Virus record (IMG/VR): IMGVR_UViG_2554235304_000012
DNA length: 35,661 bases
Origin: a virus
Lineage: Duplodnaviria; Heunggongvirae; Uroviricota; Caudoviricetes
Reading direction: 5' to 3' (one strand)
A program made the translations under genes and the position numbers. Positions 272 through 31,893 of the stretch are shown in pieces. The notes under the pieces were generated by a model, which was not told where the DNA came from, ran no database searches, and worked only from the letters and a program-made list of their open reading frames with translations. Every line of letters starts with the position of its first letter. Within the stretch, counting starts at the first letter, position 1.

Positions 272-331
272 CAGCCGAAAGGCACCCGCGCGTAATCTAT
301 CGCGTTTTTGTTACTCCGGCAATTCTGCCTG

Positions 332-2702: not shown

Positions 2703-2859
2703 CTGTTCCCTCCCTGTGCGGCATGGTCGCATGTGCGTGCGGAGGGGGTTACTGCTTTTTGTTGTCGCCGGGTCGGGAGAACGGCGCAGGGGTGAGATTA
2801 CGCGCGTGGTGGGTGATGATTGTTGCCGAATCATTTTACGGATACAAGGGGCTGAAGCT
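2703..2859. promoter_or_regulatory. Divergent intergenic region between D (-) and FI (+); presumed late promoter(s)
   Basis: 157-bp non-coding gap between two divergently oriented late genes. No Ogr-box consensus found by eye. Confidence 0.3.
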
Positions 2860-4044
2860 ATGAGTGAAACTCGTTTTCATGGTGCCCGTGTTACGGAAAA
2901 TACCGACCTGGTAACAGCGATTAATGATGTTGATTCCAGTGTTATCGGTATCGTGGCAACGGCGGATGATGCGGACGCGAAGCTGTTCCCGCTGAACAAG
3001 CCCACACTGCTGACCCGCGTCAATGACGTGCTGGGAAAATGCGGGACAACGGGGACGCTTTATCGTGCGCTTAAGGCTATCGCAGACCAGGTGAGCACAA
3101 AGGTGATCGTCGTTCGCGTGGCTGAACACAAAGAAGAAGACGGAAAGACGCAGGATCAACTGGTTATCGGTGGTTCTGAATCTGACGGCAGCTATACGGG
3201 GATGTATGCGCTGCTTGTTGCAGAGCAGGATGAAAGCATCGGATACCGTCCGCGTATTCTGGCCGCGCCGGAGCTGGACACGGAGGCGGTGACAAAATCC
3301 CTGTGCGTGATTGCGGGTAAACTGCGCGCGTTTGTGTATGCCTCATGTCATGGCTGTGACACGATGGCTGATGCGATTACCTACCGCCAGAAATTCAACG
3401 AACGTGAGGTGATGCTCTTATGGCCGGACTTCATCGCCTACAACCCGAAAAGTGGCAAAAACGAAACGTTCCCCGCGCCTGCCTATGCGTGCGGCCTTCG
3501 TGCGTACATTGACCATGAGCAGGGCTGGCACAAATCACTGTCCAACGTTCCGGTTAAAAATGTGCTGGGGATGTCGAGGCATGTGTTCTGGTCGTTGCAG
3601 GCCGAAGACAGCGATGCCAACAGCCTCAACAACAAAGAAATCACGACCATTATTCGTCGCAACGGGTTCCGCTTCTGGGGCAACCGCACACCGGAAACGA
3701 ACGCCTACATCTTTGAGGTGTATACCCGAACCGCACAGGTGCTGGCTGATTCAATTGCGGAAGCGCAGTTTGAAACCATCGACAGTCCACTGACGCCTGC
3801 GAACGTGAAGGATGTTATCAGTGCCATCAGGGCAAAACTGGATTCACTGGTGACTGCCGGGAAACTGATTGGCGCGGAGTGCTGGTATGACGTGGTGGAT
3901 AACAGCACCACGGATTTACGTCAGGGGCGTGTGCGTATTCGCTACAAATATACGCCCGTTCCGCCACTGGAAGACATGGAGCTTTACCAGACGTTTACTG
4001 ATGAATACTTTGAACCCGCATTTGCGGTGCTGGGAGGTGCCTGA
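2860..4044 (+). CDS. FI: Tail sheath protein FI
   Basis: MSETRFHGARV...SDADAKLFPLNKP...QGWHK.LSNV...IRRNGFRFWGNRT...YTPVPPLE aligns by eye with P2 FI. ATG at 2860 follows GGGGCTGAAGCT. Stop overlaps the FII start (ATGA-type coupling). Confidence 0.9.
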   Translation: MSETRFHGARVTENTDLVTAINDVDSSVIGIVATADDADAKLFPLNKPTLLTRVNDVLGKCGTTGTLYRALKAIADQVSTKVIVVRVAEHKEEDGKTQDQLVIGGSESDGSYTGMYALLVAEQDESIGYRPRILAAPELDTEAVTKSLCVIAGKLRAFVYASCHGCDTMADAITYRQKFNEREVMLLWPDFIAYNPKSGKNETFPAPAYACGLRAYIDHEQGWHKSLSNVPVKNVLGMSRHVFWSLQAEDSDANSLNNKEITTIIRRNGFRFWGNRTPETNAYIFEVYTRTAQVLADSIAEAQFETIDSPLTPANVKDVISAIRAKLDSLVTAGKLIGAECWYDVVDNSTTDLRQGRVRIRYKYTPVPPLEDMELYQTFTDEYFEPAFAVLGGA

Positions 4045-4556
4045 TGGCTGTGCCAAAACATCTTCGCTTTTTTACGCTGTTTGTGGATGGTGAAAACGAA
4101 GTGGGTAAGGTGACGTCCGTCACCCTGCCTAAGCTGACGCGCAAAACCGACAGCTACCGGGGTGGTGGCATGATGGGGGCGGTAAGTATTGATCTCGGTC
4201 TGGACGACTCCGCGCTTGATGCGAGCTTTGTCATGGGGGGCGCAGTTCGTGAGCTGTTCCTTAAGTATGGCGGCACGATTGACGGCACGCTGCTGCGTTT
4301 TGCGGGTGAATATTACACCGATGCAGAAAGCGACCTGTATGAAGTCGAAATGCGCGGACGTGTGACGGAAATTGATATGGGGGAAGCCAAACAGGGCGAA
4401 GCCACATCACACACTTACGCCATTAAAAACACCTACTACAAGCTGAGTGTTAACGATCGTCCGTTGTGGGAGATTGACCTGCTGAACTTCATTTACCGGA
4501 AGGACGGCAAGGACATTGTGCCCGATCGCATCCGTTCCGCGCTCGGGCTTGGCTGA
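4044..4556 (+). CDS. FII: Tail tube protein FII
   Basis: MAVPKHLRFFTLFVDGENEVGKVTSVTLPKLTRKTDSYRGGG resembles P2 FII (..SVTLPKLTRK..YRGAG..). About 170 aa. Confidence 0.9.
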   Translation: MAVPKHLRFFTLFVDGENEVGKVTSVTLPKLTRKTDSYRGGGMMGAVSIDLGLDDSALDASFVMGGAVRELFLKYGGTIDGTLLRFAGEYYTDAESDLYEVEMRGRVTEIDMGEAKQGEATSHTYAIKNTYYKLSVNDRPLWEIDLLNFIYRKDGKDIVPDRIRSALGLG

Positions 4557-8453: not shown

Positions 8454-8488
8454 AAACCGCTAATGGTCAGATTAGCGGTTTTTATTTT
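8454..8488 (+). terminator. Rho-independent terminator after the FI-U operon (also abuts the 3' end of the invertase gene)
   Basis: Perfect 11-bp stem AAACCGCTAAT / ATTAGCGGTTT with loop GGTCAG, followed by TTTTATTTT. Confidence 0.55.
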
Positions 8489-9071
8489 CCTGAGTCTGCC
8501 TGGTTGTTTCTTCAGCCTGTATATCGCCTACAGGGTGATAACGATAAATCGTCGATATGCCGATGTCGTAAATGATCGCCAGTTGTTTCCTGTCATGACC
8601 GTTTTTAATCAGCCTCGCTATTTGCTCGTGTTGTTCTTTTGTCAACTTCGGGCGACGTCCGCCAATGCGTCCTTGTGCGCGTGCTGCTGCCAGCCCGGCC
8701 AGTGTACGCTCTACAATTAATTCACGTTCCATTTCGGCTAAAGCCCCCATGACGTGAAAAAAGAAACGCCCCATGGGTGTTGATGTGTCAATGCTGTCCG
8801 TCAGACTACGGAAATTAACACCTTTTTCCCGCAATTCCTCAATAAGCGTGATCAGGTGTTTCATACTTCTGCCCAGTCTGTCCAGCTTCCAGACAACCAG
8901 CGTATCTCCTTCTGATAGCGTTCTGAGCAGTTTTTTCAATCCCGGTCTGGCTGATTTCGTTCCGCTGATTTTATCTTCAAAAATCAGTTCACATCCTGCG
9001 CAGTTCAGTGCATTGCGTTGTAAATCCGTGTTCTGGTCATTTGTTGACACACGAATATAGCCAATTTGCAT
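8472..9071 (-). CDS. Cin/Gin/Hin-family serine DNA invertase
   Basis: MQIGYIRVSTNDQNTDLQRNAL..GCELIFEDKISG...RPGLKKLLR.L..GDTLVVWKLDRLGRSMKHL..LIEELRE.G.NFRSLTDSIDTSTPMGRFFFHVMGALAEMERELIVERT.AGL..ARAQGRIGGRRPKLT is near-identical in pattern to P1 Cin / Mu Gin as remembered. Start set to ATG 9071 (AGAGGA Shine-Dalgarno at correct spacing). Confidence 0.9.
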   Translation of the reverse strand: MQIGYIRVSTNDQNTDLQRNALNCAGCELIFEDKISGTKSARPGLKKLLRTLSEGDTLVVWKLDRLGRSMKHLITLIEELREKGVNFRSLTDSIDTSTPMGRFFFHVMGALAEMERELIVERTLAGLAAARAQGRIGGRRPKLTKEQHEQIARLIKNGHDRKQLAIIYDIGISTIYRYHPVGDIQAEETTRQTQENKNR

Positions 9072-9125
9072 AAAAAACATCCTCTTTGTTTCGTGAAAAA
9101 TACAGAGTTGGTATAGGTAGGGATA

Positions 9126-9151
9126 AAAACGAAAACGTTGGTTTGGGGGAA
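9126..9151. repeat. hix/cix-like recombination site 1 (centre TT at 9138-9139)
   Basis: CGAAAACG-TT-GGTTTGGGGGAA. Homology to the other two copies begins exactly here. Confidence 0.5.
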
Positions 9152-9571
9152 GGCTCTGCACTGCCCGTTGGTGTGCCCGTTCCGTGGTCCTCAGCAACAC
9201 CACCAACGGGCTGGCTGAAATGTAACGGTGCAGCATTTTCTTCTGAAATGTATCCCAGACTGGCAAGGGCTTATCCCACCAATAAATTACCGGATTTACG
9301 CGGTGAATTTATCCGTGGCTGGGATGATGGGCGCGGGATTGATGCGGGACGTACCCTGCTTTCAGGGCAGGATGGTACAAGTTTTTCTCATTACGGAGGT
9401 AATTTCGACATTGGGTCTGGTCATTCAATCAATAACTATGACCAAATTGTTTCTAACCAACCAGGCTTTTCCCGTTTTTCATTTGCAGGGCCTTCACGAG
9501 GTGATGGGGTTAATTATGTAACCATTCGTCCTCGTAATATTACGTTTAATTACATCGTAAGGGCAGCATGA
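9139..9571 (+). CDS. Promoterless alternative tail-fibre C-terminal cassette 1 (silent orientation)
   Basis: The translation (within track ORF 9086..9571) shares GLGEGSALPVGVPVPW..ATPPTGWLKCNGAAFSSE.YP.LA.AYPTNKLPDLRGEFIRGWDDGRGIDA and the C-terminal PRNI.FNYIVRAA with the H C-terminus, but has a different middle region. Confidence 0.6.
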
Positions 9572-20754: not shown

Positions 20755-22506
20755 ATGATTCAGGACGCTTTTGTGCGCCAGCGTGCGCGGCAACTTTACT
20801 GGCAGGGTTATCCGCCCGCAGAAATATCACGTCTGATGGGAATAAACCCGAACACGATTTATGCGTGGAAAAAACGTGACCAGTGGGATGAAACGCCACC
20901 CGTGCAGCGTGTCACGCAGTCCATCGATGCGCGTCTCATCCAGCTTACTGAAAAACAGAATAAAACAGGCGGTGACTTTAAGGAAATAGACCTGCTGACC
21001 CGGCAGCTTAAAAAGCTGCATGATGGCCAGCCGGATGCGACGGCCGCAGGAAAGAAAGGCCGGGCGAAAAAACTCAAAAATCATTTCACGCCGGAACAGA
21101 TTGCCGCACTGCGGGAAAAAATCATCAGCAGGCTGGAGTGGCATCAGCGGGGCTGGTTTGACTCCCTGACCCTTTGCAGGGAAGCCGGGATACGTAACAG
21201 GATGATCCTGAAATCCCGACAGATTGGGGCGACCTGGTATTTTGCACAGGAAGCACTGCTGATGGCGCTGCGTGACGATGTGGCGCAACCTTACCAGCGT
21301 AACCAGATTTTTTTGTCTGCGTCGCGTCGTCAGGCGTTCCAGTTTAAAAGCATTATTCAGAAGGCCGCGGCTGAAGTTGATGTGGAGCTGAAAGGGGGCG
21401 ATAAAATCATCCTCTCCAACGGCGCAGAGCTGCATTTTCTCGGCACTTCTGCTGCGTCGGCACAGTCCTATACGGGCAATTTTTATTTTGATGAATTTTT
21501 CTGGGTCAGTCGCTTTGCTGAACTGCGCAAGGTGGCTGGCGCTATGGCAACCCTCAGCGGACTGCGGCGCACCTACTTCTCCACGCCATCCACCGAAACG
21601 CACGAGGCATACGCCTACTGGAACGGCGACCGCTGGAATGAGAAAAAGGCCTCGCATAAACGCCAGCGTTTTTCTGTGGACTGGAAAACGCTGCATAACG
21701 GGCTTATCTGCCCTGACCGGACGTGGCGGCAAATTGTCACGCTGGAAGATGTGGTTAATCACGGCTGGAAACACACTGATATCGACGAAATTCGTGATGA
21801 AAACACCGAAGACGAGTTCCTCAATCTCTATATGTGTGAGTTTGTCCGCGAAGGGGAATCGGCATTTAACCTGAATATCCTGATTGGCTGCGGTGTTGAC
21901 GGATACGACGACTGGAAAGACTGGAAACCTTTTGCTCCCCGCCCGATGGGGAATCGTCCGGTATGGATTGGGTATGACGCAAACGGCAGTAGTGGCAACG
22001 GCGACAGCGGCGCTGTGTCCGTGGTGGTTCCTCCGGCTGTTCCTGGTGGCCGTTTTCGAACGGTGGAGACGCGACGCGTTCAAGGGCTGGAGTTTGAAGA
22101 ACAGGCCAGAGTCATTGAAGAGTTCACGTATCGCTACAACGTGGAACACATCGGCATTGATGTGACGGGCGGGAACGGGGAGGCTGTTTATCAGATAGTG
22201 AAACGGTTTTTCCCTGCTGCTATTCCGTACACCTTCACGCTGTCATCAAAACGGTCGCTGGTACTGAAAATGCTGCACATAATGCGTGCCGGGCGGTGGG
22301 AATACGATCGCGCCGAACGCGAGCTGGTCGCGGCCTTTAACGCCGTGCGTAAGGTGAAAACACCGGGCGGCTTTATCACTTACGAAACGGACCGCGCGAG
22401 GGGGATCAGCCACGGCGACCTTGCGTGGGCAACCATGCTTGCTGTCATTAACGAACCGATTGGCGGCGAAGGAGAAAACGAGCGTTTCACGGTTATGGAG
22501 TTCTGA
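20755..22506 (+). CDS. P: Terminase large (ATPase) subunit P
   Basis: 583 aa (P2 P is about 589 aa), divergent from O and followed by Q with overlapping stop/start. Confidence 0.8.
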   Translation: MIQDAFVRQRARQLYWQGYPPAEISRLMGINPNTIYAWKKRDQWDETPPVQRVTQSIDARLIQLTEKQNKTGGDFKEIDLLTRQLKKLHDGQPDATAAGKKGRAKKLKNHFTPEQIAALREKIISRLEWHQRGWFDSLTLCREAGIRNRMILKSRQIGATWYFAQEALLMALRDDVAQPYQRNQIFLSASRRQAFQFKSIIQKAAAEVDVELKGGDKIILSNGAELHFLGTSAASAQSYTGNFYFDEFFWVSRFAELRKVAGAMATLSGLRRTYFSTPSTETHEAYAYWNGDRWNEKKASHKRQRFSVDWKTLHNGLICPDRTWRQIVTLEDVVNHGWKHTDIDEIRDENTEDEFLNLYMCEFVREGESAFNLNILIGCGVDGYDDWKDWKPFAPRPMGNRPVWIGYDANGSSGNGDSGAVSVVVPPAVPGGRFRTVETRRVQGLEFEEQARVIEEFTYRYNVEHIGIDVTGGNGEAVYQIVKRFFPAAIPYTFTLSSKRSLVLKMLHIMRAGRWEYDRAERELVAAFNAVRKVKTPGGFITYETDRARGISHGDLAWATMLAVINEPIGGEGENERFTVMEF

Positions 22507-23552
22507 TGAGCAGAAAAAACAAAAAAGTGCGCATGAGTTCACGCATTGATCTCGCTGATGCGCTCAGGAAAGAATCATCGCTCAGTGCATTCACATTTGA
22601 TGGTCCTTATCGCCTGACCGGGCATGACCTGCTGGACAATATGTACTGTGCTGATAACGGGCGGTGGTATGAAACCCCGGTGGACTGGTACGGTCTGGCA
22701 AGAGCAGCCCGGCAAACGTCCTGGCATCAGTCTGCGCTTTACTTTAAGCGCAATGTATTACTCGGTTGCTACATCCCGCACCCGCTGCTTTCCCGGCAGG
22801 ATTTCTCGGCGCTGGCGCTGGACTGGTTTGTGTTCGGTAATGCATTCCTTGAGCTTCGAAGCAATATGCTCGGCGAACCGCTTAAATTACGGCACGCCCT
22901 GGCGAAATACATGCGACGCGGAAGCGATCTTGAATCATGGTGGTATGTGCAGGATGGTAAGGACGCGTTTCAGTTTCGCCCTGGCAAAGTATGCCACCTG
23001 ATGAATCCGGATATTAACCAGGAAATCTACGGCATGCCGGAATATCTTGGCGCATTACTCTCGGCCAGCCTTTCTCATTCGGCGGACATGTTCAGAAAAC
23101 TGTACTACGACAACGGATCCCACGCCGGGTGCATCATCTACATCGGTGCAGCGCAGGTAAACCGCGAAAGCATGGACTCCCTGAAAGAAACGTTACAGGG
23201 TGCGCGTGGTGGTGGTGCATTTAAAAACGTGCTCATTCATGCGCCCAACGGGGGCAAAGAGGGGGTGCAAATTTTGCCGTTCCAGCAGATCACCGCAAAG
23301 GATGAGTTCATGAATGTTAAGGCGGCATCCCGTGATGATGTACTGGCTGCGCACCGCGTTCCGCCGCAACTGATGGGGGCGATGCCGGGCGAAAAAAGTG
23401 CGTTTGGTGATGTGGAGAAGGCCGCGCGGGTTTATGCAATTAACGAGCTGATGCCCGTTATGGAGGCTATGAAGCACATCAATGACTGGCTTGGCGAAGA
23501 GGTGATCCGCTTTAACCCTTACGCACTGTTAGACACCCAGCCCACATCCTGA
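22506..23552 (+). CDS. Q: Portal protein Q
   Basis: 348 aa (P2 Q is about 344 aa). Last structural gene before the presumed cos region. Confidence 0.8.
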   Translation: MSRKNKKVRMSSRIDLADALRKESSLSAFTFDGPYRLTGHDLLDNMYCADNGRWYETPVDWYGLARAARQTSWHQSALYFKRNVLLGCYIPHPLLSRQDFSALALDWFVFGNAFLELRSNMLGEPLKLRHALAKYMRRGSDLESWWYVQDGKDAFQFRPGKVCHLMNPDINQEIYGMPEYLGALLSASLSHSADMFRKLYYDNGSHAGCIIYIGAAQVNRESMDSLKETLQGARGGGAFKNVLIHAPNGGKEGVQILPFQQITAKDEFMNVKAASRDDVLAAHRVPPQLMGAMPGEKSAFGDVEKAARVYAINELMPVMEAMKHINDWLGEEVIRFNPYALLDTQPTS

Positions 23553-24027
23553 CGCGCTTCGCTTGTCTGCTGCTTCGTCGGGGCATAAAAAATTTATGCC
23601 CCGACTCTCCAGCTCCTGTATCAATCAGATAATTTCACGACGTCTTCCAGCTTATCGCCATCATCGACGGTCAGGCTCTTACGCAATCCCACCGCGTTGA
23701 CTGCATGTTCTCGCCGCCTCAGTGCGATTTTGACGGCCTTATCTGTCACCCCATCAAATCAAAAGCCCTCACGTCTTTTTCACGCTCAGCGTGAGAAATA
23801 CAGCCATTCTGTTGTGTCGCTGCGACATCGTTCAGGGGATGCTATTTACCCCCTGAAACGCGGGCTGTTCCCCCGTCACCTGCGCGCAGAAAAAGCGCGT
23901 TTTTTTGTGCACGCACGGATCCCTGACGGATCCAGCCGCCACGCGGGCCAGAAGGGCAAAAATTCGTTCAAAAAAATTGTGCAAATTTGTGCACTATCGT
24001 GCATGTAAATTCATAAAAAAATTACAG
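23553..24027. other. Non-coding region expected to contain cos and packaging signals
   Basis: About 475 bp without convincing ORFs between Q and the accessory cassette. Contains a hairpin CGGGGCATAAA...TTTATGCCCCG (23577-23602), a palindrome TCACGCTCAGCGTGA (23779-23793) and a GC-rich stretch CCGCCACGCGGGCC (about 23930-23945) loosely resembling P2/186 cohesive-end sequence. Confidence 0.3.
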
Positions 24028-24049
24028 AAAAAAGGCCGCTTTCGCGGCC
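24028..24049 (-). terminator. Rho-independent terminator after the S8 peptidase gene
   Basis: GGCCGC-TTTC-GCGGCC hairpin followed on the minus strand by a T6 run. Confidence 0.5.
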
Positions 24050-24056
24050 ATAAAAA

Positions 24057-26261
24057 TTACGTGTCGAGAGAAATTTGTGTGCGCAGTTGAATAGGATTCA
24101 GAATTGTATATCGCTGGCGAATAACATTATATAAATCAAAGTCTTTTACCCTTACGCTTATTACCATCGCATATTGCATATCAGGGGCTGAAACTCCCTT
24201 AACATGGCGCGAAGAATCTCGGGCATGATACCGTATATCAAAAACTGGATCGCTTAATAATGTATCAGCACTGAACTTTTTGCTTCTGTGCAAACAAGTT
24301 TCCCACTTATGACCTTCACTCCTACACTCCCTTTCAGTCTTATACTGGCTTTTTTGACCAAAGAAATCATCTGTATCGGTATCGTCAAGGCCGAATCTTG
24401 GGCGGAAAGTTACCTGCATACCGGCCCTTGTATAGTTTACTGAATGTTCAGGATCTACTGGGGTTTGAATGCATAAAGTAGCGGTAAGCTCAAATGCTTC
24501 GTCAAAGGGAACATCAGGGAATGGGATCGGTGCCCTTAAATATTTATTTTTTGCTAATGAACCATAGTAAATTACTGTAGCAGTATCATTTGGACAATCG
24601 ATTAAAACGTTAGGATCCTCACTAAACCGTCCCCAACCGATATGTTCACGCGAATATTTTCTTGATGTTTCAGCATGATGAACAAGCAACGCTTTCAATG
24701 CAATGGTGTTCAATGGAGTTCCTGATAGAGCCGCAACTCCAGCGGCCGTTCTCAATGCTAATGGAGAGGCATAACTGGTTCCTTGAACTCCAACTATAGA
24801 ACCAAGCAGAGGGTTGTAAGTGTAAAAAGGCTCGTCGTCGCTTCCACCAAAAATAACACCATCAGGTTTAACGAATCCGGGGCTTCTGCCTGGCCCAATA
24901 CAGCTATATGGTGCCCGCCCCCATTTTTCACCGCTACGATCAGCAGCACCAATCGCTAGCGCGTTTACCATATCGGAAGGAGGTTGTATTCTCGCTGCAT
25001 CACCGTCCTCATTGCCATCATTCCCAACAGCAACAGTAAGTAATATCCCATGCTTAGCACAGATTTGGTCTAAAACAGCAGTCCATACATGAACCTCATC
25101 ATCACCAATTGGAAGATGAGGACCAATACTTAGATTAGCGAACTTATAGTCACCACTATCAAGAACGGACTGTATTTTCTTAAGGACATCAAATAAATCC
25201 CAATTGCCATTGTCACCTGATGTCGGTGAAAGAACTCTATAATGATCTACATTCATAAACGGTCTTTTAAAAGAAGGTGCATTTTCCTCGACACGTCCGA
25301 ATAAGAAAGTGGATGTCACTTCATTACCGTGCTGCAATAATAATCCGCTTGTTTCTTTGGTGTCTGGATACACGTATTCCGTAACCCAATTACTCAAGTC
25401 AGCTGTCCCCAAGCCACCATCAAAAATGGCAATACGTTCGGATTCAAGAACAGCTTTAGAATTAGGGAGCTCCGGTGTAACTATATTAGATAACTTTCTG
25501 ACAATGTTCGGCTGAGTACACCTGAGAGACGGCATCGGCCGCACAACGCGGATTAATGAAAAATCGAGTGTTTTTTTCATATCTTCAGGTCGCGCGTGTG
25601 CAACGATGAAAGTCAGCCCACCAACTTGGATTCTACTTTTGTAATCAACAGAGACATCATATTGTGCCGCATAGCTAATATAGGCTTTAACGATATCATC
25701 GTCTTCAACCCCAGCATGAAGAACCACTTCAAATTTTATCAAATCACTTTTCGCATGCTCAAAATTGCGTGCTCTCTCTTTTCCTTCAAAAAAGCTAACA
25801 CTTTCAATTTCGATCAAATCCTTTTGTACGCCCTTCGGAGCTGTAGGGGAATTTAAAATTTCCTTAAATCTTATAACGGCATCATCATCACCGCTAACAA
25901 ACAGTTGCGCCGTTACTAAGTCCTTATTCTGATCGCACTGACGTGCCGCTTTCCGTGGGCGAATGATTACCTGACGGCTGCCGACATCCCGTAAACCTGT
26001 CGCTCTAAGCAATCCTTCCGGAAAGTAGCTTTTACCCAAAAACGCTGGGTGTAAAGTTAAATTGAATACACTCTCCCCCCTTGGCTTAGCCGCATCATCC
26101 AAACTGCGAAAGCGTGAGAGTAAAGTATCAATCTCTGGGTTTAAATGCTCCCTTACTTCTTCAAGAGTATAGGGATAGCGCTTACCATCCCTTCCTTTAG
26201 GCAAAGGTTCCTTTTTTGTCAGAACATGACCGTTACCTAAAAGTAAGTTCCTTTCCATCAT
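24057..26261 (-). CDS. Subtilisin-like serine peptidase (S8 family), 734 aa; IetS-like
   Basis: Asp box IAIFDGGLG, oxyanion-hole region VAVGNDGNEDG and Ser box GTSYASPLALRTAAG in S8 order. Start overlaps the upstream ATPase stop by 4 nt. AT-rich by eye. Confidence 0.85.
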   Translation of the reverse strand: MMERNLLLGNGHVLTKKEPLPKGRDGKRYPYTLEEVREHLNPEIDTLLSRFRSLDDAAKPRGESVFNLTLHPAFLGKSYFPEGLLRATGLRDVGSRQVIIRPRKAARQCDQNKDLVTAQLFVSGDDDAVIRFKEILNSPTAPKGVQKDLIEIESVSFFEGKERARNFEHAKSDLIKFEVVLHAGVEDDDIVKAYISYAAQYDVSVDYKSRIQVGGLTFIVAHARPEDMKKTLDFSLIRVVRPMPSLRCTQPNIVRKLSNIVTPELPNSKAVLESERIAIFDGGLGTADLSNWVTEYVYPDTKETSGLLLQHGNEVTSTFLFGRVEENAPSFKRPFMNVDHYRVLSPTSGDNGNWDLFDVLKKIQSVLDSGDYKFANLSIGPHLPIGDDEVHVWTAVLDQICAKHGILLTVAVGNDGNEDGDAARIQPPSDMVNALAIGAADRSGEKWGRAPYSCIGPGRSPGFVKPDGVIFGGSDDEPFYTYNPLLGSIVGVQGTSYASPLALRTAAGVAALSGTPLNTIALKALLVHHAETSRKYSREHIGWGRFSEDPNVLIDCPNDTATVIYYGSLAKNKYLRAPIPFPDVPFDEAFELTATLCIQTPVDPEHSVNYTRAGMQVTFRPRFGLDDTDTDDFFGQKSQYKTERECRSEGHKWETCLHRSKKFSADTLLSDPVFDIRYHARDSSRHVKGVSAPDMQYAMVISVRVKDFDLYNVIRQRYTILNPIQLRTQISLDT

Positions 26262-27340
26262 TTAATCCCCCACTTTTGTAATTTATTCGCGATTGTTGGA
26301 TGTGAAACACCAACTAATTCAGCTATCTTCCTATTTGAAAAACCGTCAAAATGATATTTAATTATATTGAGATCATTATCGCTAAACTCATCCAATGAAA
26401 CCCTCTCCGTAATTACGGCTTCTATTAATGAGCTTTCAAATGGAATATTTCTAAGTACCTCATTCTTTTTGGAGAAATTCAAAATACGGTTAATGATGGC
26501 AAAGGACATGCCATCTAATAATGGTGCAAGTTTTTTAGATAGTTCAGGTTCAATATTATGATTGACTAAATATCTATCTATCAGTTCTACTGATGGCATA
26601 TTAAATTTAAGGATGTGCTCAAATCGACGCCAAACAGCCGGATCTAAGATATCAGGGTGATTAGTCGCAGCAACAAGAAGCGAGGTCGCTGGCCACTCAT
26701 CTATGGTCTGTAGGAGTACAGTAACTAAACGTTTTAATTCTCCAACGTCCCTGTCATCATCACGTCTTTTTGCAACAGCATCAAATTCATCAAGCAAAAG
26801 GACACATGGTTTCTCTTTGGCATAATCCATAACGGATTTAATATTATTACCTGTTTTTCCCAAAAGAGAACTCATTACAGATGAGAGATCCAATGTTAAA
26901 AGAGGTAAATTTAACTTTGCAGCAAGCCAATGTGCGGACATTGTTTTGCCTACGCCTGGCGGGCCAGAAAGTAAAACCGTCTTCACAGGTTCAAGACCAG
27001 CTTTGAACAAAGAAACCGCATTCTCTCTTTCGTTAACAATTGACTCCAGCTTCTTTGAGATATCCGTATTCCATACAGGTTCTTCAACAATTGCGTTGAC
27101 AGATGTTTCCTGCAAAAGGTTTCGTCTGGAGTCTCCATCCACAGGCATAGGAGCCTTACTAGATGCCCCACGTAATACTGTTCCCTCAGCAACTAACGAA
27201 GCCAGCTTAGAAGCTAAAGCCTCATCATTTTTACGGATGTTGTTAATCATCTTTCTGCATAGGAGTGTAAATGCATTTGCGTTGCCTTTGATGCCTTGCT
27301 CGATGAGTTTGAAAAGTTCATCCTCCCTCACGTTTACCAT
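26258..27340 (-). CDS. AAA+ ATPase with C-terminal helix-turn-helix, 360 aa; IetA-like
   Basis: Walker A GPPGVGKT, Walker B VLLLDEFD, sensor/SRH region LLVAATNHPDILDPAVWRRF, and a C-terminal HTH NRKIAELVGVSHPTIANKLQKWGI. Confidence 0.85.
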   Translation of the reverse strand: MVNVREDELFKLIEQGIKGNANAFTLLCRKMINNIRKNDEALASKLASLVAEGTVLRGASSKAPMPVDGDSRRNLLQETSVNAIVEEPVWNTDISKKLESIVNERENAVSLFKAGLEPVKTVLLSGPPGVGKTMSAHWLAAKLNLPLLTLDLSSVMSSLLGKTGNNIKSVMDYAKEKPCVLLLDEFDAVAKRRDDDRDVGELKRLVTVLLQTIDEWPATSLLVAATNHPDILDPAVWRRFEHILKFNMPSVELIDRYLVNHNIEPELSKKLAPLLDGMSFAIINRILNFSKKNEVLRNIPFESSLIEAVITERVSLDEFSDNDLNIIKYHFDGFSNRKIAELVGVSHPTIANKLQKWGIK

Positions 27341-27718
27341 AAAACCCCCAATAAAACATCAGCTTGTGTAAGCTGGTAACTACATTAATGAAAATCATTG
27401 ACTAATGTTACCACTCTTGCTGGCGTAATTCAAAGAGTATCCTTACTTTTTTACTGTATGGATAATCAGCATAAAATCTATCCAGTTGGGTTACTCGAAC
27501 ATACTGTCAATACTTGTTTCCAACGATTGATCAGTTCTACAGTTTTATCTCCTTCACTTGTGTTGGCAGCATGCTTATTCCTGAACCAGCTCGATTACTT
27601 GGCCATTTGAGAAAGATGTGTAGATCTTCTGATGGTTTGTATTGGAACGGGGTGTATAGTGATTTGCACCCCGTTCTTTATGTTATGGGATTGGTGGCAG
27701 GGCGAATACGCCCTGATG

Positions 27719-28030
27719 TTATTCAGGAAATAACGCCCGGATATTTCCGGCCATCTGACTGGTTATCTGTGCGGTTGATACTGGCTGTGACGCGGGGCGT
27801 TCTGTCTTGGTTTGTGTCACTGATAACACCTCATCATCAGCCCATGCAGCCAGTCGGTAAGCCTCTGCCGGATTCATTTTCAGAAGTGCCAGCCCGGCCA
27901 GAAAAGCCACGCGTTGGCCGCTTTTGCGGGCTTCTGGTGTAAGGCTGTCCAGCCAGGCGCATGCTTCTCCTTCGTTCTTGACGGCGGTGGGCTTCAGATA
28001 GAAACTTATCCGTCTGGTTGGAGTCGTCAT
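27719..28030 (-). CDS. parR: ParR-like centromere-binding adaptor (putative)
   Basis: 103 aa from ATG 28030 with AAGGAG Shine-Dalgarno, immediately downstream of parM as in R1 parMR. N-terminal RISFYL.P ... LDSLTPEARKSGQRVAFLAGLAL weakly resembles R1 ParR (RTIAFKL.P...LDSIPQGERSRLNRAALTAGLAL). Confidence 0.6.
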   Translation of the reverse strand: MTTPTRRISFYLKPTAVKNEGEACAWLDSLTPEARKSGQRVAFLAGLALLKMNPAEAYRLAAWADDEVLSVTQTKTERPASQPVSTAQITSQMAGNIRALFPE

Positions 28031-28034
28031 TGGT

Positions 28035-28994
28035 TTACTCCTTGTCCATTGCGTACAGCCCATTAACCAGAGCAAACTGTGGCACCCCGTCCGCGATGAA
28101 AGTCGCATTAACTCCGCAGGCTTCGCGGATAGCGGGTGCCACAATCTCCGCCCCTCCACCGACAACCATCACCCGCCCGTAACCCGAAAAAACCGCCAGC
28201 GCGCGGATCACGCGTTGTTTCAGTGTTTCCTCCTTTTCACGAATAACTGCCATCAGGCTGGCGTAATGCGCGTCATTGTGGATGTGCTGGCGCAGCCAGG
28301 CTTCATCGTGGCGATGTTCGATAATGGTATTGGCGATGTGGTGACTGGTGCGCATACCGTTGGTGGCCATCACCGACAGCACGGCATCGGCCATCAGAGA
28401 AACGCCTACGTGTGGATCGCAAAACACCTGGCTGATACCTGCCAGTTGCCCCTGAACCTTTGCCACATCCAGCGTGGTTCCGCCCAAATCCACAATCAGC
28501 AGGGATTCAAACGGACTCATGTCAGCCAGTGCTTTAAAGCCAGCCGGAATGGATTCAGGCATAACCCGCACGTTACGGATAGTGAATGCCTCGCCGTTTT
28601 GGTACTCCACCGGGCGCATAACGTTCGCTTTTTTGCGGTTGATGTTGGCCATGTCCGGCTGTGCGTTTGTGTCGAAATACTCGCTCAGTGGCAGGGTGAC
28701 AACCACATCCACCTCCTGTGGCGTGATGCCTGATTTGACCAGCGCATGATGAATGGCAATGACATTCACATCGCTGTACTGGTATTGCGTGTCGGTCGTC
28801 TGGACAAAGCGATCGCTGACCGGATCAAAACCATAGCGCACGCCATCAAGCATGTAGTTCGCGGGCTGCGTGCCACCGAACGGCGCAGACCATTCCGACT
28901 TGAAGCTGTTCGGGCTGATGGCGTTGCGGTGTTCGCCGTTCTCAGTCCATGCCAGCTTGATGTTGGTGGAGCCGTCGTCGATACAAATTTTCAT
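28035..28994 (-). CDS. parM: ParM/StbA actin-like segregation ATPase
   Basis: MKICIDDGSTNIKLAW......ISPNSFK.EW...FG...NY.L.G..Y.FDP.S......T....YSDVNV.A.HHAL..SG....EVD.V.T.PL.E..D.N.QP...NI.RKKAN..R......G..FTI..V.VMPESIPAG...L......SLLI.DLGGTTLD aligns closely with R1 ParM as remembered. Confidence 0.9.
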   Translation of the reverse strand: MKICIDDGSTNIKLAWTENGEHRNAISPNSFKSEWSAPFGGTQPANYMLDGVRYGFDPVSDRFVQTTDTQYQYSDVNVIAIHHALVKSGITPQEVDVVVTLPLSEYFDTNAQPDMANINRKKANVMRPVEYQNGEAFTIRNVRVMPESIPAGFKALADMSPFESLLIVDLGGTTLDVAKVQGQLAGISQVFCDPHVGVSLMADAVLSVMATNGMRTSHHIANTIIEHRHDEAWLRQHIHNDAHYASLMAVIREKEETLKQRVIRALAVFSGYGRVMVVGGGAEIVAPAIREACGVNATFIADGVPQFALVNGLYAMDKE

Positions 28995-29031: not shown

Positions 29032-29134
29032 GGATTTTTAAATCCCGTTTTCGCCTGTTTTGTGCGCGCTTCATATATCGCGGCGCGTTTTTTGCTCATT
29101 TACGGGATTTGTGAATCCCGTTTTTGTCTGTTTT
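29032..29134. repeat. parC-like repeats upstream of parM (two ~30-bp direct repeats, each with an internal inverted repeat)
   Basis: GGATTTTTAAATCCCGTTTTCGCCTGTTTT (29032-29061) and GGGATTTGTGAATCCCGTTTTTGTCTGTTTT (29104-29134). The second copy lies inside the last codons of gene A. Confidence 0.45.
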
Positions 29135-31893
29135 TTGTTTCCACTGGTCAGGCCACCCCGCAGCAGGTCTGCTTTGCGGCGGGCGCGTTCAGTTGTTTCA
29201 CTGATTCTCTGTTCGTGCTCTGCGTCGCGGATGGCGCGCAGCATGTCAGAAAGTACGGTAACGGGTGTTTTCATGGTGTTCTGGTCTTGCTGAAGTGTGG
29301 ATGCCAGGCGTGCGGCGGCTTCAGGGTCTGATGCCCCTAGTTGTTCCAGATAGCTGGCGACCGGGTTATGGCGGATCTCCGTGCTGCTTACGCCGTGGTT
29401 ACGGCTCAGGCGTTGCCAGAGCTGCGTGATTCGGCTGTCCGGGCGGGTATCCGGTTTACGTACAATTTCATATCCCTGCGGTGCAATGATGCTGCCGTCA
29501 ACGTACAGGCTGCCGCCCCGTAACAGGTGCTGCATCTGCTGTTCACCGATATGCAGGCCGAGAGATTCAGCAGACTCCCGCCATTCTTTAGCGAGTAATT
29601 CGTGGTTATCAGGCAAAGGCCGCTGCTGTTTGCGGCTCTGTGTCCAGCTCTGCATTTCATCACTGCTGTTTTTTGCCTGTTTGTCACGAAGCGAACGCAT
29701 CAGCGCCCGGCGTTCGTGCCGTTTCAGTGAGCGCACCCATTCGTTCACTTCAACGCCGTCAGGGAGCTGCGGCCACGGTGCTGGCCGTTCTTCCGGCTGT
29801 TCTGTCCCGTTGTTGTCCGTTTCCTGTACACGGGGACAGTTATTGCCACGAGTCCAAGGGGCGGCAGGGCCGCCCTGAAGGTCAAAACCATTTTCGTGGG
29901 CGCTGCCTTCCTGTTCCGGTTTACGTCTTACCAGCTTCCAGTTATCCGGGTGCGTGCACACACGGGAGGATTCCCCGATGAGTGGTGACCAGATCCCGTA
30001 AATCTGTACACTCTGTTCGCCGTAATCGTTCAGCTCATCGGCGAGGTCGTAGGCGGTGCGAATCAGGTAGTCTTTGCGTGGAACAAGTACACCGCCCTGT
30101 TTCTCTATGTAGGTGGCAAAACATCCGGCATCAGCGGCAGCGAGTACCGCATCCATTGCGTCATCCTTCAGCCGTTGCGGGCCTTCCGGGTTGCGTGCCA
30201 TCTGGCTGGCAAGGCGGCGGAGTTCACGCCACACCTGACGGGAGGGGATGCCAAAGAACTGGAACTGGCGGACCCGGTGAAGGCGTGCCCAACCGATGGC
30301 GCGCTCCACGCTCTCGGCCATTGATTTTCCGGTTTCGTGGTCAACGCGTGGTTTGCCCGTTTTCGGGTCGATGCCATCCACGGCGCGGCTGTCCAGGTTT
30401 TTTCCGATGTAGGTGGCGATGTAGCTGGTTGGCGTGCCTTTGGTGCCGTCGACGTACTCCACCTTAAAGCGCGGAGTAATATCATTGCCCAGCTCGTGGC
30501 GGTCTTCCTGAATGGCAATATCGCGGGTGATGGTCACGATGCTGTCGATTTCTTCCGGATGAGCAAAGACCATCATATGCCAGTGCACGGTGCCGTCATG
30601 GTGAGGCTCCACCGTGCGGATGCCATACCAGCGCAGGCCGTCGCGGTTCAGTTTTTTGCGGACCGCCGCAAAAAACGTGTTAACCAGGTAATCGCTGGAG
30701 TCGCGCATGGTGGCCCCGTTCCATTTGGGGTTCGGATGACCGTTCTCCGTTGTTGCGTGGTATTTTGACGGGCAGGTGACAGTCAGAAACACCGCTCTGT
30801 CGCCACGGGCTTCGGCCAGAAGTTCCAGTCCCTTCATGGTGGCCATCATTTCTGCCTTACGGTGAACCGGGTTACTTACTCCCGCGTAATACACTGTCTC
30901 GAGATCAATCGTGAACCCGTCTTCGTTTTCCAGCATGAAACTTTTCAGGAAATCGCGTGTTTTCTCGCGCTGTGCGCGAAACTCGCTTAACGCGTCCTGG
31001 CTCAGATAGGGCGATGTTTTTCTGGAAACCAGACAGGCGGCGCGGAGTTGTTCTTCTCTCCACTCGCAACGTAACAGCCACAGTTTGCGTTTCCACCATT
31101 CCGCACAGGTCAGGCGAAGGATTGCGCCCGGCAGCAGCTCCGTGTCCGGTTCGTTCCTCCGGTCTTTGTCTGTTGTCAGTGCGTCATAATGTGGAGGCAT
31201 GGCGTGCAGGTGTAACGCCATGCGGGCCAGCATCTGATACGCCTTCAGGGTTACATCCATGGTCAGCTCGCCATCGGTCGCGCCAAAGCCATCGCAGAGT
31301 TTTTCGAAGGTGCTGCTGAACATCGCCGCCGTCATGGTTGCCAGCGTCTTTATCTGGTGTTTGTTGAGCTGCGGCAGGTAAAGCAAATCGTCCAGGCGTT
31401 CGCGTCCGGCAAGGGAGCGATAACCCGGTGTCAGCCAGCGGTGATCGGTGCGCTCCAGACGTTCGAATATTTTGCGCAGGGTCCCACGCGCATAGCGTTC
31501 TGCCTGCCTGGCGTTTTTTCCTTTCTGACGATCGGCTTCCTGTTTTTTGCGCAGGAAGGAGAGGTGGCGAATAAGCGGATCGCGCAGATAGGACGGCAGC
31601 AGGCGCAGCGAGGCCATGGCTTCATCCACCGCGCCGCGTGCCTGTTTTCTGGCGTCTCCTGCCAGTGTGATGGTTTTGTCCTGTTTTTCCTGTGCGTCCA
31701 GGCTTTTATTAATCAGGTTGCCCAGCGGCGTGGCGGAGAACGCCGCATCAGCCATTTCCTGGCGGTGCTCGTTCTCTGCCCGGTAGGCATCCAGCCAGGA
31801 GGAAAGCGCGGATTCAGGAGCGGGGATCCCCGTTCCTTCACGCCCCACTGCGTGGCGCGGTTGTTGCCAGTCCCTGATGTACTCTGCCGTCAT
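29071..31893 (-). CDS. A: Replication initiation protein A (rolling-circle HUH endonuclease family), 940 aa with C-terminal extension
   Basis: Position and orientation as P2 A. A histidine-rich HUH-like motif (PHHDGTVHWHMMVFAHP) consistent with a rolling-circle initiator. Uninterrupted ORF, about 180 aa longer than P2 A (761 aa). Confidence 0.85.
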   Translation of the reverse strand: MTAEYIRDWQQPRHAVGREGTGIPAPESALSSWLDAYRAENEHRQEMADAAFSATPLGNLINKSLDAQEKQDKTITLAGDARKQARGAVDEAMASLRLLPSYLRDPLIRHLSFLRKKQEADRQKGKNARQAERYARGTLRKIFERLERTDHRWLTPGYRSLAGRERLDDLLYLPQLNKHQIKTLATMTAAMFSSTFEKLCDGFGATDGELTMDVTLKAYQMLARMALHLHAMPPHYDALTTDKDRRNEPDTELLPGAILRLTCAEWWKRKLWLLRCEWREEQLRAACLVSRKTSPYLSQDALSEFRAQREKTRDFLKSFMLENEDGFTIDLETVYYAGVSNPVHRKAEMMATMKGLELLAEARGDRAVFLTVTCPSKYHATTENGHPNPKWNGATMRDSSDYLVNTFFAAVRKKLNRDGLRWYGIRTVEPHHDGTVHWHMMVFAHPEEIDSIVTITRDIAIQEDRHELGNDITPRFKVEYVDGTKGTPTSYIATYIGKNLDSRAVDGIDPKTGKPRVDHETGKSMAESVERAIGWARLHRVRQFQFFGIPSRQVWRELRRLASQMARNPEGPQRLKDDAMDAVLAAADAGCFATYIEKQGGVLVPRKDYLIRTAYDLADELNDYGEQSVQIYGIWSPLIGESSRVCTHPDNWKLVRRKPEQEGSAHENGFDLQGGPAAPWTRGNNCPRVQETDNNGTEQPEERPAPWPQLPDGVEVNEWVRSLKRHERRALMRSLRDKQAKNSSDEMQSWTQSRKQQRPLPDNHELLAKEWRESAESLGLHIGEQQMQHLLRGGSLYVDGSIIAPQGYEIVRKPDTRPDSRITQLWQRLSRNHGVSSTEIRHNPVASYLEQLGASDPEAAARLASTLQQDQNTMKTPVTVLSDMLRAIRDAEHEQRISETTERARRKADLLRGGLTSGNKKQTKTGFTNPVNEQKTRRDI

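What the first reader, a model, noticed from the sequence alone, without database searches (positions are those of the whole stretch)
24057..27600. AAA+ ATPase plus S8 subtilase cassette (IetAS-like) in the P2 tin/old defence hotspot
Two co-oriented genes with a 4-bp overlap encode a classic-clade AAA+ ATPase (Walker A GPPGVGKT, Walker B LLLDEFD, SRH ..ATNHPDILDPAVWRRF) ending in a helix-turn-helix, and a 734-aa subtilisin-like S8 peptidase (IAIFDGG / VAVGNDG / GTSYASP). The cassette is AT-rich by eye compared with the phage backbone. It has its own AT-rich upstream region (27341-27600) and its own terminator (24028-24049). It sits between replication gene A and cos/Q, where P2 carries tin and old and where P2-like phages have been reported to carry anti-phage cargo. 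The architecture matches what I recall as IetAS (Gao et al. 2020), whose mechanism is not understood. The C-terminal HTH on the ATPase suggests DNA binding or autoregulation.
Basis: partly seen in the sequence, partly recalled or inferred. Interest (0 to 1): 0.75.

Follow-up and report, generated by a model that had tools for sequence, protein, structure and literature searches.

The report
Known IetAS defence cassette in prophage
This is a real two-gene ATPase-plus-protease cassette of the IetAS anti-phage/toxin-antitoxin family, sitting in the well-known cargo slot of a P2-like prophage of E. coli E2348/69; the same two proteins are already listed as "ietAS" in a 2022 catalogue of that slot, so the find is correct but not new.

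Summary
Two co-oriented minus-strand genes overlap by 4 bp: ietA (26258-27340, 360 aa) and ietS (24057-26261, 734 aa). They lie in a low-GC island (41.5% against 53.4% for the rest of the window) between replication gene A and the portal gene. PADLOC matches both over their full length (IetA E=3.6e-89, IetS E=6.6e-41).

- The backbone is P88-like, not P2 itself, and parM/parR-like genes lie between gene A and the cassette.
- "VAVGNDG" is the oxyanion-hole Asn motif. The catalytic His is H311 in LLQHGNEVTS. D281, H311, S496 and N414 are invariant in 40 homologues.

The cassette is 100% identical to E. coli E2348/69. Rousset et al. 2022 (Table S5B) list identical sequences as system 7 of the P2 gpA-gpQ hotspot (400 occurrences), labelled "ietAS". 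It is therefore already known.

It is a divergent clade: 34%/24% identity to an NCBIfam-annotated IteA/IteS pair, and below NCBIfam's cut-offs. I found no direct test of this clade. The family's mechanism is still described as unknown.

New here, all inferred:
- IetS folds like an unprocessed pro-subtilase.
- A GGTAAC-N26-GTTACC operator-like repeat overlaps the predicted -10 and recurs in relatives.
- An SOS-box-like site lies upstream.

The parts
26258..27340 (-). ietA: a 360-aa classic-clade AAA+ ATPase. It has an N-terminal helical region (about 1-55), the AAA+ core (about 110-300) and a C-terminal three-helix HTH (about 321-356).
   Evidence: PADLOC IetA PDLC02196 E=3.6e-89, residues 7-356. 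Pfam AAA 9.6e-31. HTH_50 29.2 bits on the C-terminal fragment. K132, D184, E185, N227, R238, R239 and H347-P348-T349 are invariant in 40 homologues. AF2 pLDDT 78.8. Closest folds are p97 D2, FtsH, Vps4 and PAN.
24057..26261 (-). ietS: a 734-aa cytoplasmic S8 subtilase. It has two N-terminal beta-alpha-beta-beta-alpha-beta units (about 64-157 and 175-242), a linker (243-271), the catalytic domain (272-545; D281, H311, N414, S496) and a C-terminal beta-sandwich (about 556-720).
   Evidence: PADLOC IetS PDLC02197 E=6.6e-41, residues 22-707. Pfam Peptidase_S8 4e-17. Triad invariant in 40 homologues. AF2 pLDDT 81.8, pTM 0.86. Top fold matches are ProN-Tk-SP, KP-43, fervidolysin and pro-subtilisin E, followed by GOLD/jelly-roll folds.
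24024..24049 (-). Intrinsic terminator of the ietAS operon: a 6-bp all-GC stem, a GAAA loop and a T-run.
   Evidence: Terminator scan; sequence read directly.
27405..27433 (-). Candidate sigma-70 promoter: -35 TTGAAT (27433..27428), a 17-nt spacer, and an extended -10 TGgTAACAT (27413..27405).
   Evidence: Read from the sequence. It scores 8/12, below the scanner's 9/12 threshold. The AGTGGTAAnATT block is invariant in the Serratia, Limnobaculum and phiT5282H upstream regions. This is an inference.
27375..27412 (-). Candidate operator for the IetA HTH: GGTAAC-N26-GTTACC, a 38-bp span covering the predicted -10 to about +24.
   Evidence: The end motifs are conserved at 72-74% protein identity. 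GGTA...TACC spans of 36-38 bp at the same position occur in L003, L005, L006, L007, L010, L014 and L083. Overall 11 of 48 upstream regions carry the pattern against 1.7% of control windows, p=5e-10. This is an inference; binding was not tested.
27360..27375 (-). Perfect 6-4-6 palindrome CAGCTTACACAAGCTG in the predicted 5' UTR, 19 nt before the ATG.
   Evidence: phiT5282H has CAACTTATGTAAGTTG, which is a compensatory G:C to A:T change. Function unknown.
27452..27471 (.). Conserved block with an SOS-box-like dyad (TACTGTATGGATAATCAGCA on the plus strand), about 19 nt upstream of the predicted -35.
   Evidence: It is the only CTG-N10-CAG site in the window with at least 13/20 matches to the LexA consensus (it has 15/20). 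8% of shuffles give at least one site of 14/20 or better. The block is conserved in four lineages, but the CTG is ATG in Serratia. Speculative.
23862..27601 (.). Extent of the mobile cassette as shared with Enterobacter phage phiT5282H. Against P88-like phages the non-shared stretch is about 24004-27676.
   Evidence: megablast gives 95.8% identity over query 310-4049. The P88-like phages match only query 1-451 and 4125-4548. Annotations.
27644..27677 (.). 13-bp-stem hairpin between the parR-like gene and the cassette. It may insulate the cassette from gpA-parMR transcription.
   Evidence: Terminator scan. Its role is inferred.
27719..28994 (-). Flank: parM (28035-28994) and a Plasmid_stab_B/ParR-like gene (27719-28030 as annotated in RefSeq).
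   Evidence: Pfam StbA_N 2.7e-82, ParM C-terminal domain 6.3e-69, Plasmid_stab_B 1.7e-23. RefSeq annotation.
29071..31893 (-). Flank: replication gene A homologue. This is one anchor of the hotspot.
   Evidence: Pfam Phage_GPA 8.8e-131.
22506..23552 (+). Flank: portal protein (gpQ homologue). This is the other anchor of the hotspot; the cos-proximal region follows it.
   Evidence: Annotated as portal protein in E2348/69, P88 and phiT5282H.

Best explanation
The cassette is an IetAS-family anti-phage / toxin-antitoxin module. It is carried as exchangeable cargo in the cos-proximal gpA-gpQ hotspot of a P88-like (Peduoviridae) prophage of E. coli O127:H6 E2348/69.

Shown here:
- The two genes form a tightly coupled operon with its own terminator.
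- Both are under purifying selection.
- The A-then-S pairing is conserved across many bacterial phyla.
- All catalytic residues of both enzymes are intact.

Taken from the literature on other IetAS systems:
- IetS is the toxic effector.
- IetA is the ATP-dependent antitoxin.
- Protease activity is required for defence.
- Defence acts by abortive infection and is triggered by a phage protein.

Inferred for this cassette:
1. In the lysogen the operon is transcribed from its own weak promoter with an extended -10.
2. IetA represses that promoter through its C-terminal HTH, which binds a GGTAAC...GTTACC operator lying over the -10 and the transcription start.
3. IetA assembles as a p97/FtsH-like hexameric remodeller. 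It keeps the cytoplasmic, pro-subtilase-like IetS inactive.
4. When a competing phage infects, a phage protein blocks or diverts IetA, or binds the non-catalytic domains of IetS.
5. IetS is then released and cleaves host or phage proteins. This stops growth before the invader completes its cycle.
For: Family identity:
- PADLOC IetA and IetS match over the full length.
- NCBIfam's best hits are IteA and IteS.
- The identical proteins are catalogued as ietAS in the P2 hotspot.

Operon and selection:
- 4-bp overlap and terminator.
- An IetS homologue lies immediately downstream of IetA in most of 80 genome loci from many phyla; five loci had none detected, four of them on short contigs.
- dN/dS is 0.13 for ietA and 0.07 for ietS against phiT5282H.
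- Catalytic residues are invariant.

Mobility of the cargo:
- The same cassette is found at 95.8% identity in a different genus, Novemvirus.
- Homologues at 72-74% identity sit in the same slot in Serratia and Limnobaculum prophages.
- The slot's content varies among P88-like phages.

Folds:
- IetA is a classic-clade AAA+ protein.
- IetS resembles unprocessed pro-subtilases that carry a C-terminal jelly-roll domain.

Operator: conserved GGTA...TACC repeat over the predicted -10, p=5e-10.

Literature:
- Toxin/antitoxin roles, protease requirement and 'mechanism remains unknown' (PMC13069673).
- Abortive infection and a phage-protein trigger for the B. cereus system (10.1101/2022.08.27.505566).
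- ietAS lying in prophages in E. coli (10.1101/2022.08.21.504612).
Against: - I found no experiment on this clade.
- It is only 34%/24% identical to an NCBIfam-annotated IteA/IteS pair, and it scores below the equivalog cut-offs: 253 bits against 510, and 116 against 900.
- Its IetS shows no significant BLASTP similarity to the pTiC58 founder.
- The ECOR52 system tested by Wu et al. was amplified with primers that do not match this window, and it gave only limited protection when tested alone.
- The promoter is weak, at 8/12, and was not detected by the scan.
- The middle GGTA half-site seen in more distant relatives is degenerate in the window.
- How an unfoldase would restrain a protease is not shown for any IetAS system.
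Confidence: 0.6

Rival explanations
1. The cassette serves mainly as an addiction or stability module for the prophage, not as an anti-phage system. Cells that lose the element lose the labile or continuously needed IetA activity and are killed by IetS. This would complement the neighbouring parM/parR-like partition genes.
For: The founding ietAS was described as a plasmid-stabilising toxin-antitoxin pair (PMC13069673). In this window the cassette abuts parM and a Plasmid_stab_B gene. Homologues also occur on plasmids.
Against: The same cassette sits in phiT5282H, and its Serratia and Limnobaculum relatives sit in prophages, directly next to gpA with no par genes. The slot is a documented defence hotspot. 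Other IetAS systems protect against phage. The two roles are not mutually exclusive.
Confidence: 0.15
2. IetA and IetS form a two-part ATP-dependent protease. IetA is the activating unfoldase: it selects and unfolds a phage or host target, or pulls away the prodomain-like units of IetS, and so enables cleavage. On this view IetA is not an inhibitor.
For: IetA is closest to p97 D2, FtsH and the proteasomal ATPases, all of which are substrate-translocating unfoldases. IetS has the layout of an unprocessed zymogen.
Against: Genetics in other IetAS systems make IetA the antitoxin; constructs with mutated ietA could not be obtained. The pore-loop-1 position is Leu-Leu-Gly with no aromatic residue. 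I know of no chambered subtilase that docks to an AAA+ ring (my own knowledge).
Confidence: 0.15
3. The cassette is inert or decaying cargo with no current function.
For: Only 32 of 5426 complete E. coli genomes carry it. The promoter is weak.
Against: Both ORFs are intact. dN/dS is 0.07-0.13. All catalytic residues are invariant. 31 of the 32 genomes carry it at 99% identity or more. Upstream non-coding blocks are conserved.
Confidence: 0.02

Closest known systems
ietAS as catalogued in the P2-like gpA-gpQ hotspot (Rousset et al. 2022, Cell Host Microbe, Table S5A/S5B, system 7)
   Same: These are the same proteins. IetA is identical over 360/360 residues, and the 399 printed residues of IetS are identical. 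The accessions WP_000248600 and WP_000970615 are the same, and the table also lists the arrangement with StbA and Plasmid_stab_B neighbours.
   Different: Nothing differs in sequence. That paper only labels the system. The main text I searched never mentions ietAS, and I found no test of it there.
IetAS of the NCBIfam IteA/IteS type (models NF042959 and NF042956; example: Acidovorax sp. T1 plasmid p1-T1)
   Same: Same gene order and same architecture: an AAA+ protein with a C-terminal HTH, and an S8 peptidase of about 750 aa that is collinear from the N-terminal region into the C-terminal domain. The best PADLOC models are the same, PDLC02196 and PDLC02197.
   Different: Identity is only 34% (IetA) and 24% (IetS). 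Scores are far below those of the exemplar: 298 against 488 bits, and 138 against 980 bits. They are also below NCBIfam's equivalog cut-offs. This is a separate clade.
ietAS of Ti plasmid pTiC58 (founding toxin-antitoxin pair; identified here by its AAA + S8 gene order on NC_003065, 97873-101373)
   Same: An AAA+ gene is followed by an S8 peptidase gene. The IetA core is 32% identical. It belongs to the same PADLOC family.
   Different: pTiC58 IetA has 328 aa and lacks the HTH. Its IetS has 836 aa and shows no significant BLASTP similarity to the window's IetS.
ietHAS / E. coli E24377A-type ietAS (SNF2 helicase + AAA 326 aa + S8 795 aa)
   Same: Same family by PADLOC. Protease activity is needed for defence, and ietA behaves as an antitoxin.
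   Different: It has an extra, essential SNF2 helicase. Its IetA has no HTH. It sits next to methyltransferase and helicase genes rather than in a P2 hotspot.
P2 tin and old
   Same: Same locus: the cos-proximal slot between gpA and gpQ. Same role as prophage-borne exclusion cargo.
   Different: The proteins are unrelated.
Pro-subtilases with C-terminal beta-sandwich domains (ProN-Tk-SP 3afg, KP-43 1wmd, fervidolysin 1r6v, pro-subtilisin E 3whi)
   Different: As far as I know those are secreted enzymes. IetS has no signal peptide, carries two N-terminal alpha/beta units, and is always paired with an AAA+ partner.
TRIP13/Pch2 in HORMA-containing CBASS systems (a functional analogy only)
   Same: An AAA+ remodeller acts as a negative regulator of an immune effector. 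IetA also gives weak hits to the PADLOC TRIP13 models, E=4e-13.
   Different: There is no HORMA partner or cyclase. The hit reflects the shared AAA+ core.

Membership tests
IetAS defence / toxin-antitoxin system | Adjacent, co-oriented genes with the AAA+ ATPase first and the S8 peptidase immediately downstream | tested here: met
   4-bp overlap on the same strand. The same order and tight spacing are seen in most of 80 related genome loci.
IetAS defence / toxin-antitoxin system | The ATPase matches an IetA profile over most of its length | tested here: met
   PADLOC PDLC02196, E=3.6e-89, residues 7-356 against model positions 5-370 of 374.
IetAS defence / toxin-antitoxin system | The peptidase matches an IetS profile over most of its length | tested here: met
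   PADLOC PDLC02197, E=6.6e-41, residues 22-707 against model positions 24-718 of 749. The score (138 bits) is modest, but it exceeds that of the pTiC58 founder against any IetS model (86 bits).
IetAS defence / toxin-antitoxin system | Intact Walker A/B and arginine fingers in IetA; intact Asp-His-Ser triad in IetS | tested here: met
   K132, D184/E185 and R238/R239 in IetA; D281, H311, S496 and N414 in IetS. All are invariant in 40-sequence alignments.
IetAS defence / toxin-antitoxin system | IetS is toxic, IetA neutralises it, and the pair protects against phage | not testable with these tools
   Known only for other members. I found no experiment on this clade.
NCBIfam equivalogs IteA (NF042959) and IteS (NF042956) | Whole-protein score at or above the curated cut-off (510 and 900 bits) | tested here: not met
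   253 and 116 bits. This is the same superfamily and architecture, but the proteins are not equivalogs of those models.
Cargo of the P2-like gpA-gpQ (cos-proximal) defence hotspot | Located between the replication gene A homologue and the portal gene; content varies among close relatives; composition is atypical for the backbone | tested here: met
   gpA at 29071-31893 and portal at 22506-23552. P88-like phages share the flanks but not the insert. GC is 41.5% against 53.4%. The locus is defined in Rousset 2022 and in PMC13586616.
Phage P2 itself (genus Peduovirus) | Backbone collinear with P2, and the hotspot directly abuts gene A | tested here: not met
   The closest backbones are P88-like Xuanwuvirus phages. 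parM and a Plasmid_stab_B gene lie between gene A and the cassette.

The most novel reading that the evidence does not exclude
This P2-hotspot clade of IetAS may be a self-repressed zymogen switch.
- The IetA HTH would shut off the operon at a GGTAAC...GTTACC operator.
- An upstream SOS-box-like site would add a DNA-damage input.
- IetS would be an uncleaved pro-subtilase whose prodomain-like units are held in place, or re-set, by the IetA ring.
- Phage interference with IetA would then both free the protease and de-repress the operon.

None of this has been described for IetAS in the papers I could read.
Probability: 0.2. Interest if true: 0.5.

Novelty: already known. Interest (0 to 1): 0.25.

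Why it matters
As an identification it adds little. The same two proteins, at the same kind of locus, are already in a published catalogue under the name ietAS, and defence-finding tools recognise them.

The remaining value lies in three points:
- IetAS still has no known mechanism.
- This clade is abundant in E. coli P2-like prophages (400 occurrences in the 2022 survey) and is present in the model pathogen E2348/69, yet I found no direct test of it.
- The features noted here give concrete experiments in a genetically tractable strain: the pro-subtilase-like build of IetS, the operator-like repeat over the promoter, and a possible SOS box.

Tried and rejected
- Do the N- and C-terminal regions of IetS, or the N-terminus of IetA, match a Pfam family when scanned alone at E up to 10? 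No usable hit.
- Was this cassette the one tested by Wu et al. (ietAS from ECOR52)? Their primers match neither the window nor the E24377A locus, so it remains unidentified. No ECOR52 genome appears among the 32 carriers.
- Gao et al. 2020 (PMC7985843) is not held in the library. No paper cites the protein accessions. A search for IteA, IteS, IetS and Gao_Iet returned only noise.
- The 2026 survey of P2/P4 hotspots does not name Iet in its main text and has no supplements held.
- A general test for any palindrome upstream of ietA across 46 upstream regions (the window plus 45 loci) showed only a small excess: mean best arm 6.0 against 5.2 bp. The signal is confined to the closer clade and to the specific GGTA/TACC motif.
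- I looked for a P2 late-promoter (Ogr) dyad, TGT-N12-ACA, in the conserved upstream block by eye. It does not fit.
- I looked for a promoter using the perfect TTGACA at 27510..27505. There is no usable -10 at 16-18 nt.
- Model coordinates are not exposed, so I could not check whether the linker at 243-271 lies in the active-site cleft.


Full report
**1. What is there**

Two minus-strand ORFs occupy the stated interval:
- 26258-27340, 360 aa
- 24057-26261, 734 aa

They overlap by the four bases ATGA. GC falls to 0.39-0.43 across the genes, against 0.53-0.60 on both sides. For 23862-27601 the figure is 41.5%, against 53.4% for the rest of the window. A terminator with a 6-bp GC stem and a T-run follows ietS at 24049..24024.

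The upstream spacer at 27341-27600 is real. However, the consensus scan found no minus-strand promoter of 9/12 or better in it.

**2. What the proteins are**

- PADLOC matches both proteins over their full length: IetA PDLC02196 at E=3.6e-89, and IetS PDLC02197 at E=6.6e-41.
- Pfam gives AAA (9.6e-31) and Peptidase_S8 (4e-17, residues 288-544).
- NCBIfam's best hits are the anti-phage ATPase IteA and peptidase IteS. Both are far below the equivalog cut-offs: 253 bits against 510, and 116 against 900.

In an alignment of 40 IetS homologues (41-85% identity), D281, H311, N414 and S496 are invariant. A profile alignment to subtilase SubTY places them on the catalytic Asp, His, oxyanion-hole Asn and Ser.

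In 40 IetA homologues the following are invariant:
- Walker A (K132)
- Walker B (D184, E185)
- sensor-1 N227
- R238 and R239
- an S/H/P/T stretch in the last helix

The C-terminal HTH is just under Pfam's cut-off in the whole protein (26.7 bits against 27) and passes when the C-terminal fragment is scanned alone (29.2 bits). AlphaFold models it as three short helices. Homologues carry precomputed HTH_23, HTH_50 or HTH_38 hits.

**3. Where it sits**

The neighbours are:
- terminase large subunit and portal on the plus strand (20755-23552)
- on the minus strand, a Plasmid_stab_B gene, parM, and a 940-aa gene A homologue (Phage_GPA, 8.8e-131)

The DNA of the cassette is 100% identical to E. coli O127:H6 E2348/69. 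There it lies in a P2-like prophage next to btuC. The closest phage backbones are P88-like Xuanwuvirus phages. These share the flanks but carry different small genes in the slot.

The cassette itself (window 23862-27601) recurs at 95.8% identity in Enterobacter phage phiT5282H, genus Novemvirus. There it sits directly between gene A and the portal gene. Homologues at 72-74% protein identity occupy the same slot in Serratia and Limnobaculum prophages.

So this is mobile hotspot cargo. The backbone is not P2 proper, and partition genes intervene between gene A and the cassette.

**4. Already known**

Rousset et al. 2022 surveyed this gpA-gpQ locus in E. coli. Their Table S5B lists, as system 7 with 400 occurrences, 'Peptidase_S8 | AAA', annotated 'ietAS (Gao et al, 2020)'. 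The printed IetA sequence equals the window's over 360/360 residues. The 399 printed residues of IetS are also identical.

Their Table S5A lists WP_000248600 + WP_000970615 together with StbA and Plasmid_stab_B. RefSeq gives these same accessions to the E2348/69 genes. Wu et al. also point to a prophage location for ietAS in E. coli when discussing its mutual exclusion with Zorya II.

**5. How it relates to studied IetAS systems**

| Comparison | IetA | IetS |
|---|---|---|
| NCBIfam-annotated IteA/IteS pair on an Acidovorax plasmid | 34% identical, collinear including the HTH region | 24% identical over residues 32-663 |
| pTiC58 founder | 32% identical; the founder has 328 aa and no HTH | no significant BLASTP similarity; the founder has 836 aa |

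A different type, seen in E. coli E24377A, consists of an SNF2 helicase, an AAA protein of 326 aa and an S8 peptidase of 795 aa, and lies next to methyltransferase and helicase genes. This is the ietHAS arrangement of Liu et al. 2026.

The ECOR52 system tested by Wu et al. was amplified with primers that do not match this window.

I therefore place the cassette in the IetAS family, in the HTH-bearing architectural type, as a separate clade. I found no direct experiment on this clade.

**6. Evidence that it is functional**

- Against phiT5282H, dN/dS is 0.13 for ietA and 0.07 for ietS.
- In 80 genome loci recovered with the IetA profile, spanning Proteobacteria, Acidobacteriota, Myxococcota, Actinomycetota, Planctomycetota, Chloroflexota and Paenibacillus, an IetS homologue lies immediately downstream on the same strand in most of them. 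Five loci had none detected, four of them on short contigs.
- The two genes are present in 32 of 5426 complete E. coli genomes. All copies are chromosomal, and 31 are at 99% identity or more.

**7. Structure**

The IetS model is confident (pLDDT 81.8, pTM 0.86). Its layout is:
- two N-terminal beta-alpha-beta-beta-alpha-beta units, at about 64-157 and 175-242
- a linker
- the S8 domain
- a C-terminal beta-sandwich

I infer that IetS is a cytoplasmic protease built like an uncleaved zymogen. I could not verify that the linker occupies the active-site cleft, because model coordinates are not exposed.

IetA is a classic-clade AAA+ protein. It is closest to p97 D2, FtsH, Vps4 and the proteasomal ATPases. 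The pore-loop-1 position reads Leu-Leu-Gly, with no aromatic residue. No solved IetA or IetS structure exists in the PDB copy searched.

**8. Regulation (inferred)**

Upstream regions from the window, phiT5282H, Serratia and Limnobaculum align with islands of identity inside otherwise diverged sequence. The conserved islands are:
- AGTGGTAAnATT
- a TTACCA-like motif 28 nt further downstream (TTTCCA in Limnobaculum)
- a block TGATTATnnnTACAGTAAAAA
- the ribosome-binding site

The first island contains an extended -10, TGgTAACAT (27413..27405). A TTGAAT -35 lies 17 nt upstream of it. Together these score 8/12.

GGTAAC (27412..27407) and GTTACC (27380..27375) form an inverted repeat spanning 38 bp, from the -10 to about +24. 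Spans of GGTA...TACC of 36-38 bp occur at the same position in six more distant loci (43-53% protein identity), often with a second GGTA one helical turn inside the first. Overall, 11 of 48 upstream regions carry the pattern, against 1.7% of control windows from the same loci (binomial p=5e-10).

This is what one would expect if the invariant IetA HTH recognises a GGTA half-site and represses its own operon, as antitoxins commonly do. Binding has not been tested.

**9. Mechanism**

The literature gives the following for other IetAS systems:
- IetS is a toxin and IetA is an antitoxin.
- Protease activity is needed for defence.
- Constructs with mutated ietA could not be obtained.
- The mechanism is stated to be unknown as of 2026 (PMC13069673).
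- The B. cereus system acts by abortive infection and is set off by expression of a single phage protein.

Combined with the anatomy above, my preferred model is as follows. An autorepressed operon produces an IetA ring that keeps a zymogen-like IetS inactive. A phage product disables or diverts IetA, or engages the non-catalytic domains of IetS. The released protease then arrests the cell.

I rate the family assignment at about 0.95 and this mechanism at about 0.5. The stated confidence of 0.6 covers the whole statement.

The rivals are: a mainly addictive or stabilising role; IetA as an activating unfoldase of a two-part protease; and inert cargo.

**10. Verdict**

The finding is already known, because the identical cassette is catalogued at this locus. 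Interest is therefore low. What remains of value is the unresolved mechanism of IetAS and the specific, testable regulatory and structural features noted here.

Noticed in passing
window 27452-27471: An SOS-box-like dyad (TACTGTATGGATAATCAGCA on the plus strand) lies inside a conserved block about 19 nt upstream of the predicted ietA -35. It is the only CTG-N10-CAG site in the whole window with at least 13/20 matches to the LexA consensus (it has 15/20). About 8% of shuffles give at least one site of 14/20 or better. It is conserved in phiT5282H and Limnobaculum, but the CTG is ATG in Serratia. From memory, it shares 16/20 positions with the E. coli sulA box.
   Followed up: partly
window 27360-27375: A perfect palindrome, CAGCTTACACAAGCTG, lies in the predicted ietA 5' UTR. 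phiT5282H has CAACTTATGTAAGTTG, a compensatory change that keeps the dyad. It is not seen in the Serratia or Limnobaculum relatives.
   Followed up: partly
window 27719-28994: A parM gene and a Plasmid_stab_B (ParR-like) partition gene sit in an integrated P2-like prophage, between gene A and the hotspot. This is shared with P88-like phages. It raises the question of whether these phages can also be maintained as plasmids.
   Followed up: no
window 742-1431 (minus strand): A 229-aa ORF lies in a second low-GC patch (about 0.39), downstream of the gpD homologue (1602-2834). It has no Pfam or PADLOC hit. It could be further cargo near the prophage end.
   Followed up: partly
window 8472-9266 (minus strand): A serine recombinase (Resolvase + HTH_7) lies among tail-fibre and fibre-assembly genes that face in opposite directions. 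This looks like a Gin/Cin-type invertible host-range switch.
   Followed up: no
IetA residues 159-161 (window about 26858-26866): The pore-loop-1 position of this classic-clade AAA+ protein reads Leu-Leu-Gly rather than aromatic-hydrophobic-Gly. L160 and G161 are invariant, and L159 is nearly so.
   Followed up: no
L091 (E. coli E24377A, NC_009801.1 3330029-3340792): E. coli also carries a second, architecturally different ietAS type: an SNF2 helicase, an AAA protein of 326 aa without an HTH, and an S8 peptidase of 795 aa, followed by a DNA methyltransferase and a DEAD/DEAH helicase. It is not in a P2 hotspot.
   Followed up: partly
L079 (uncultured alphaproteobacterium, 13 kb): An IetA homologue with no detectable IetS homologue anywhere in the locus, which extends 6 kb downstream. 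It is the one long locus that breaks the A-then-S pairing.
   Followed up: no
window 27644-27677: A long hairpin (13-bp stem) lies between the parR-like gene and the cassette, at the right-hand junction of the variable region.
   Followed up: no
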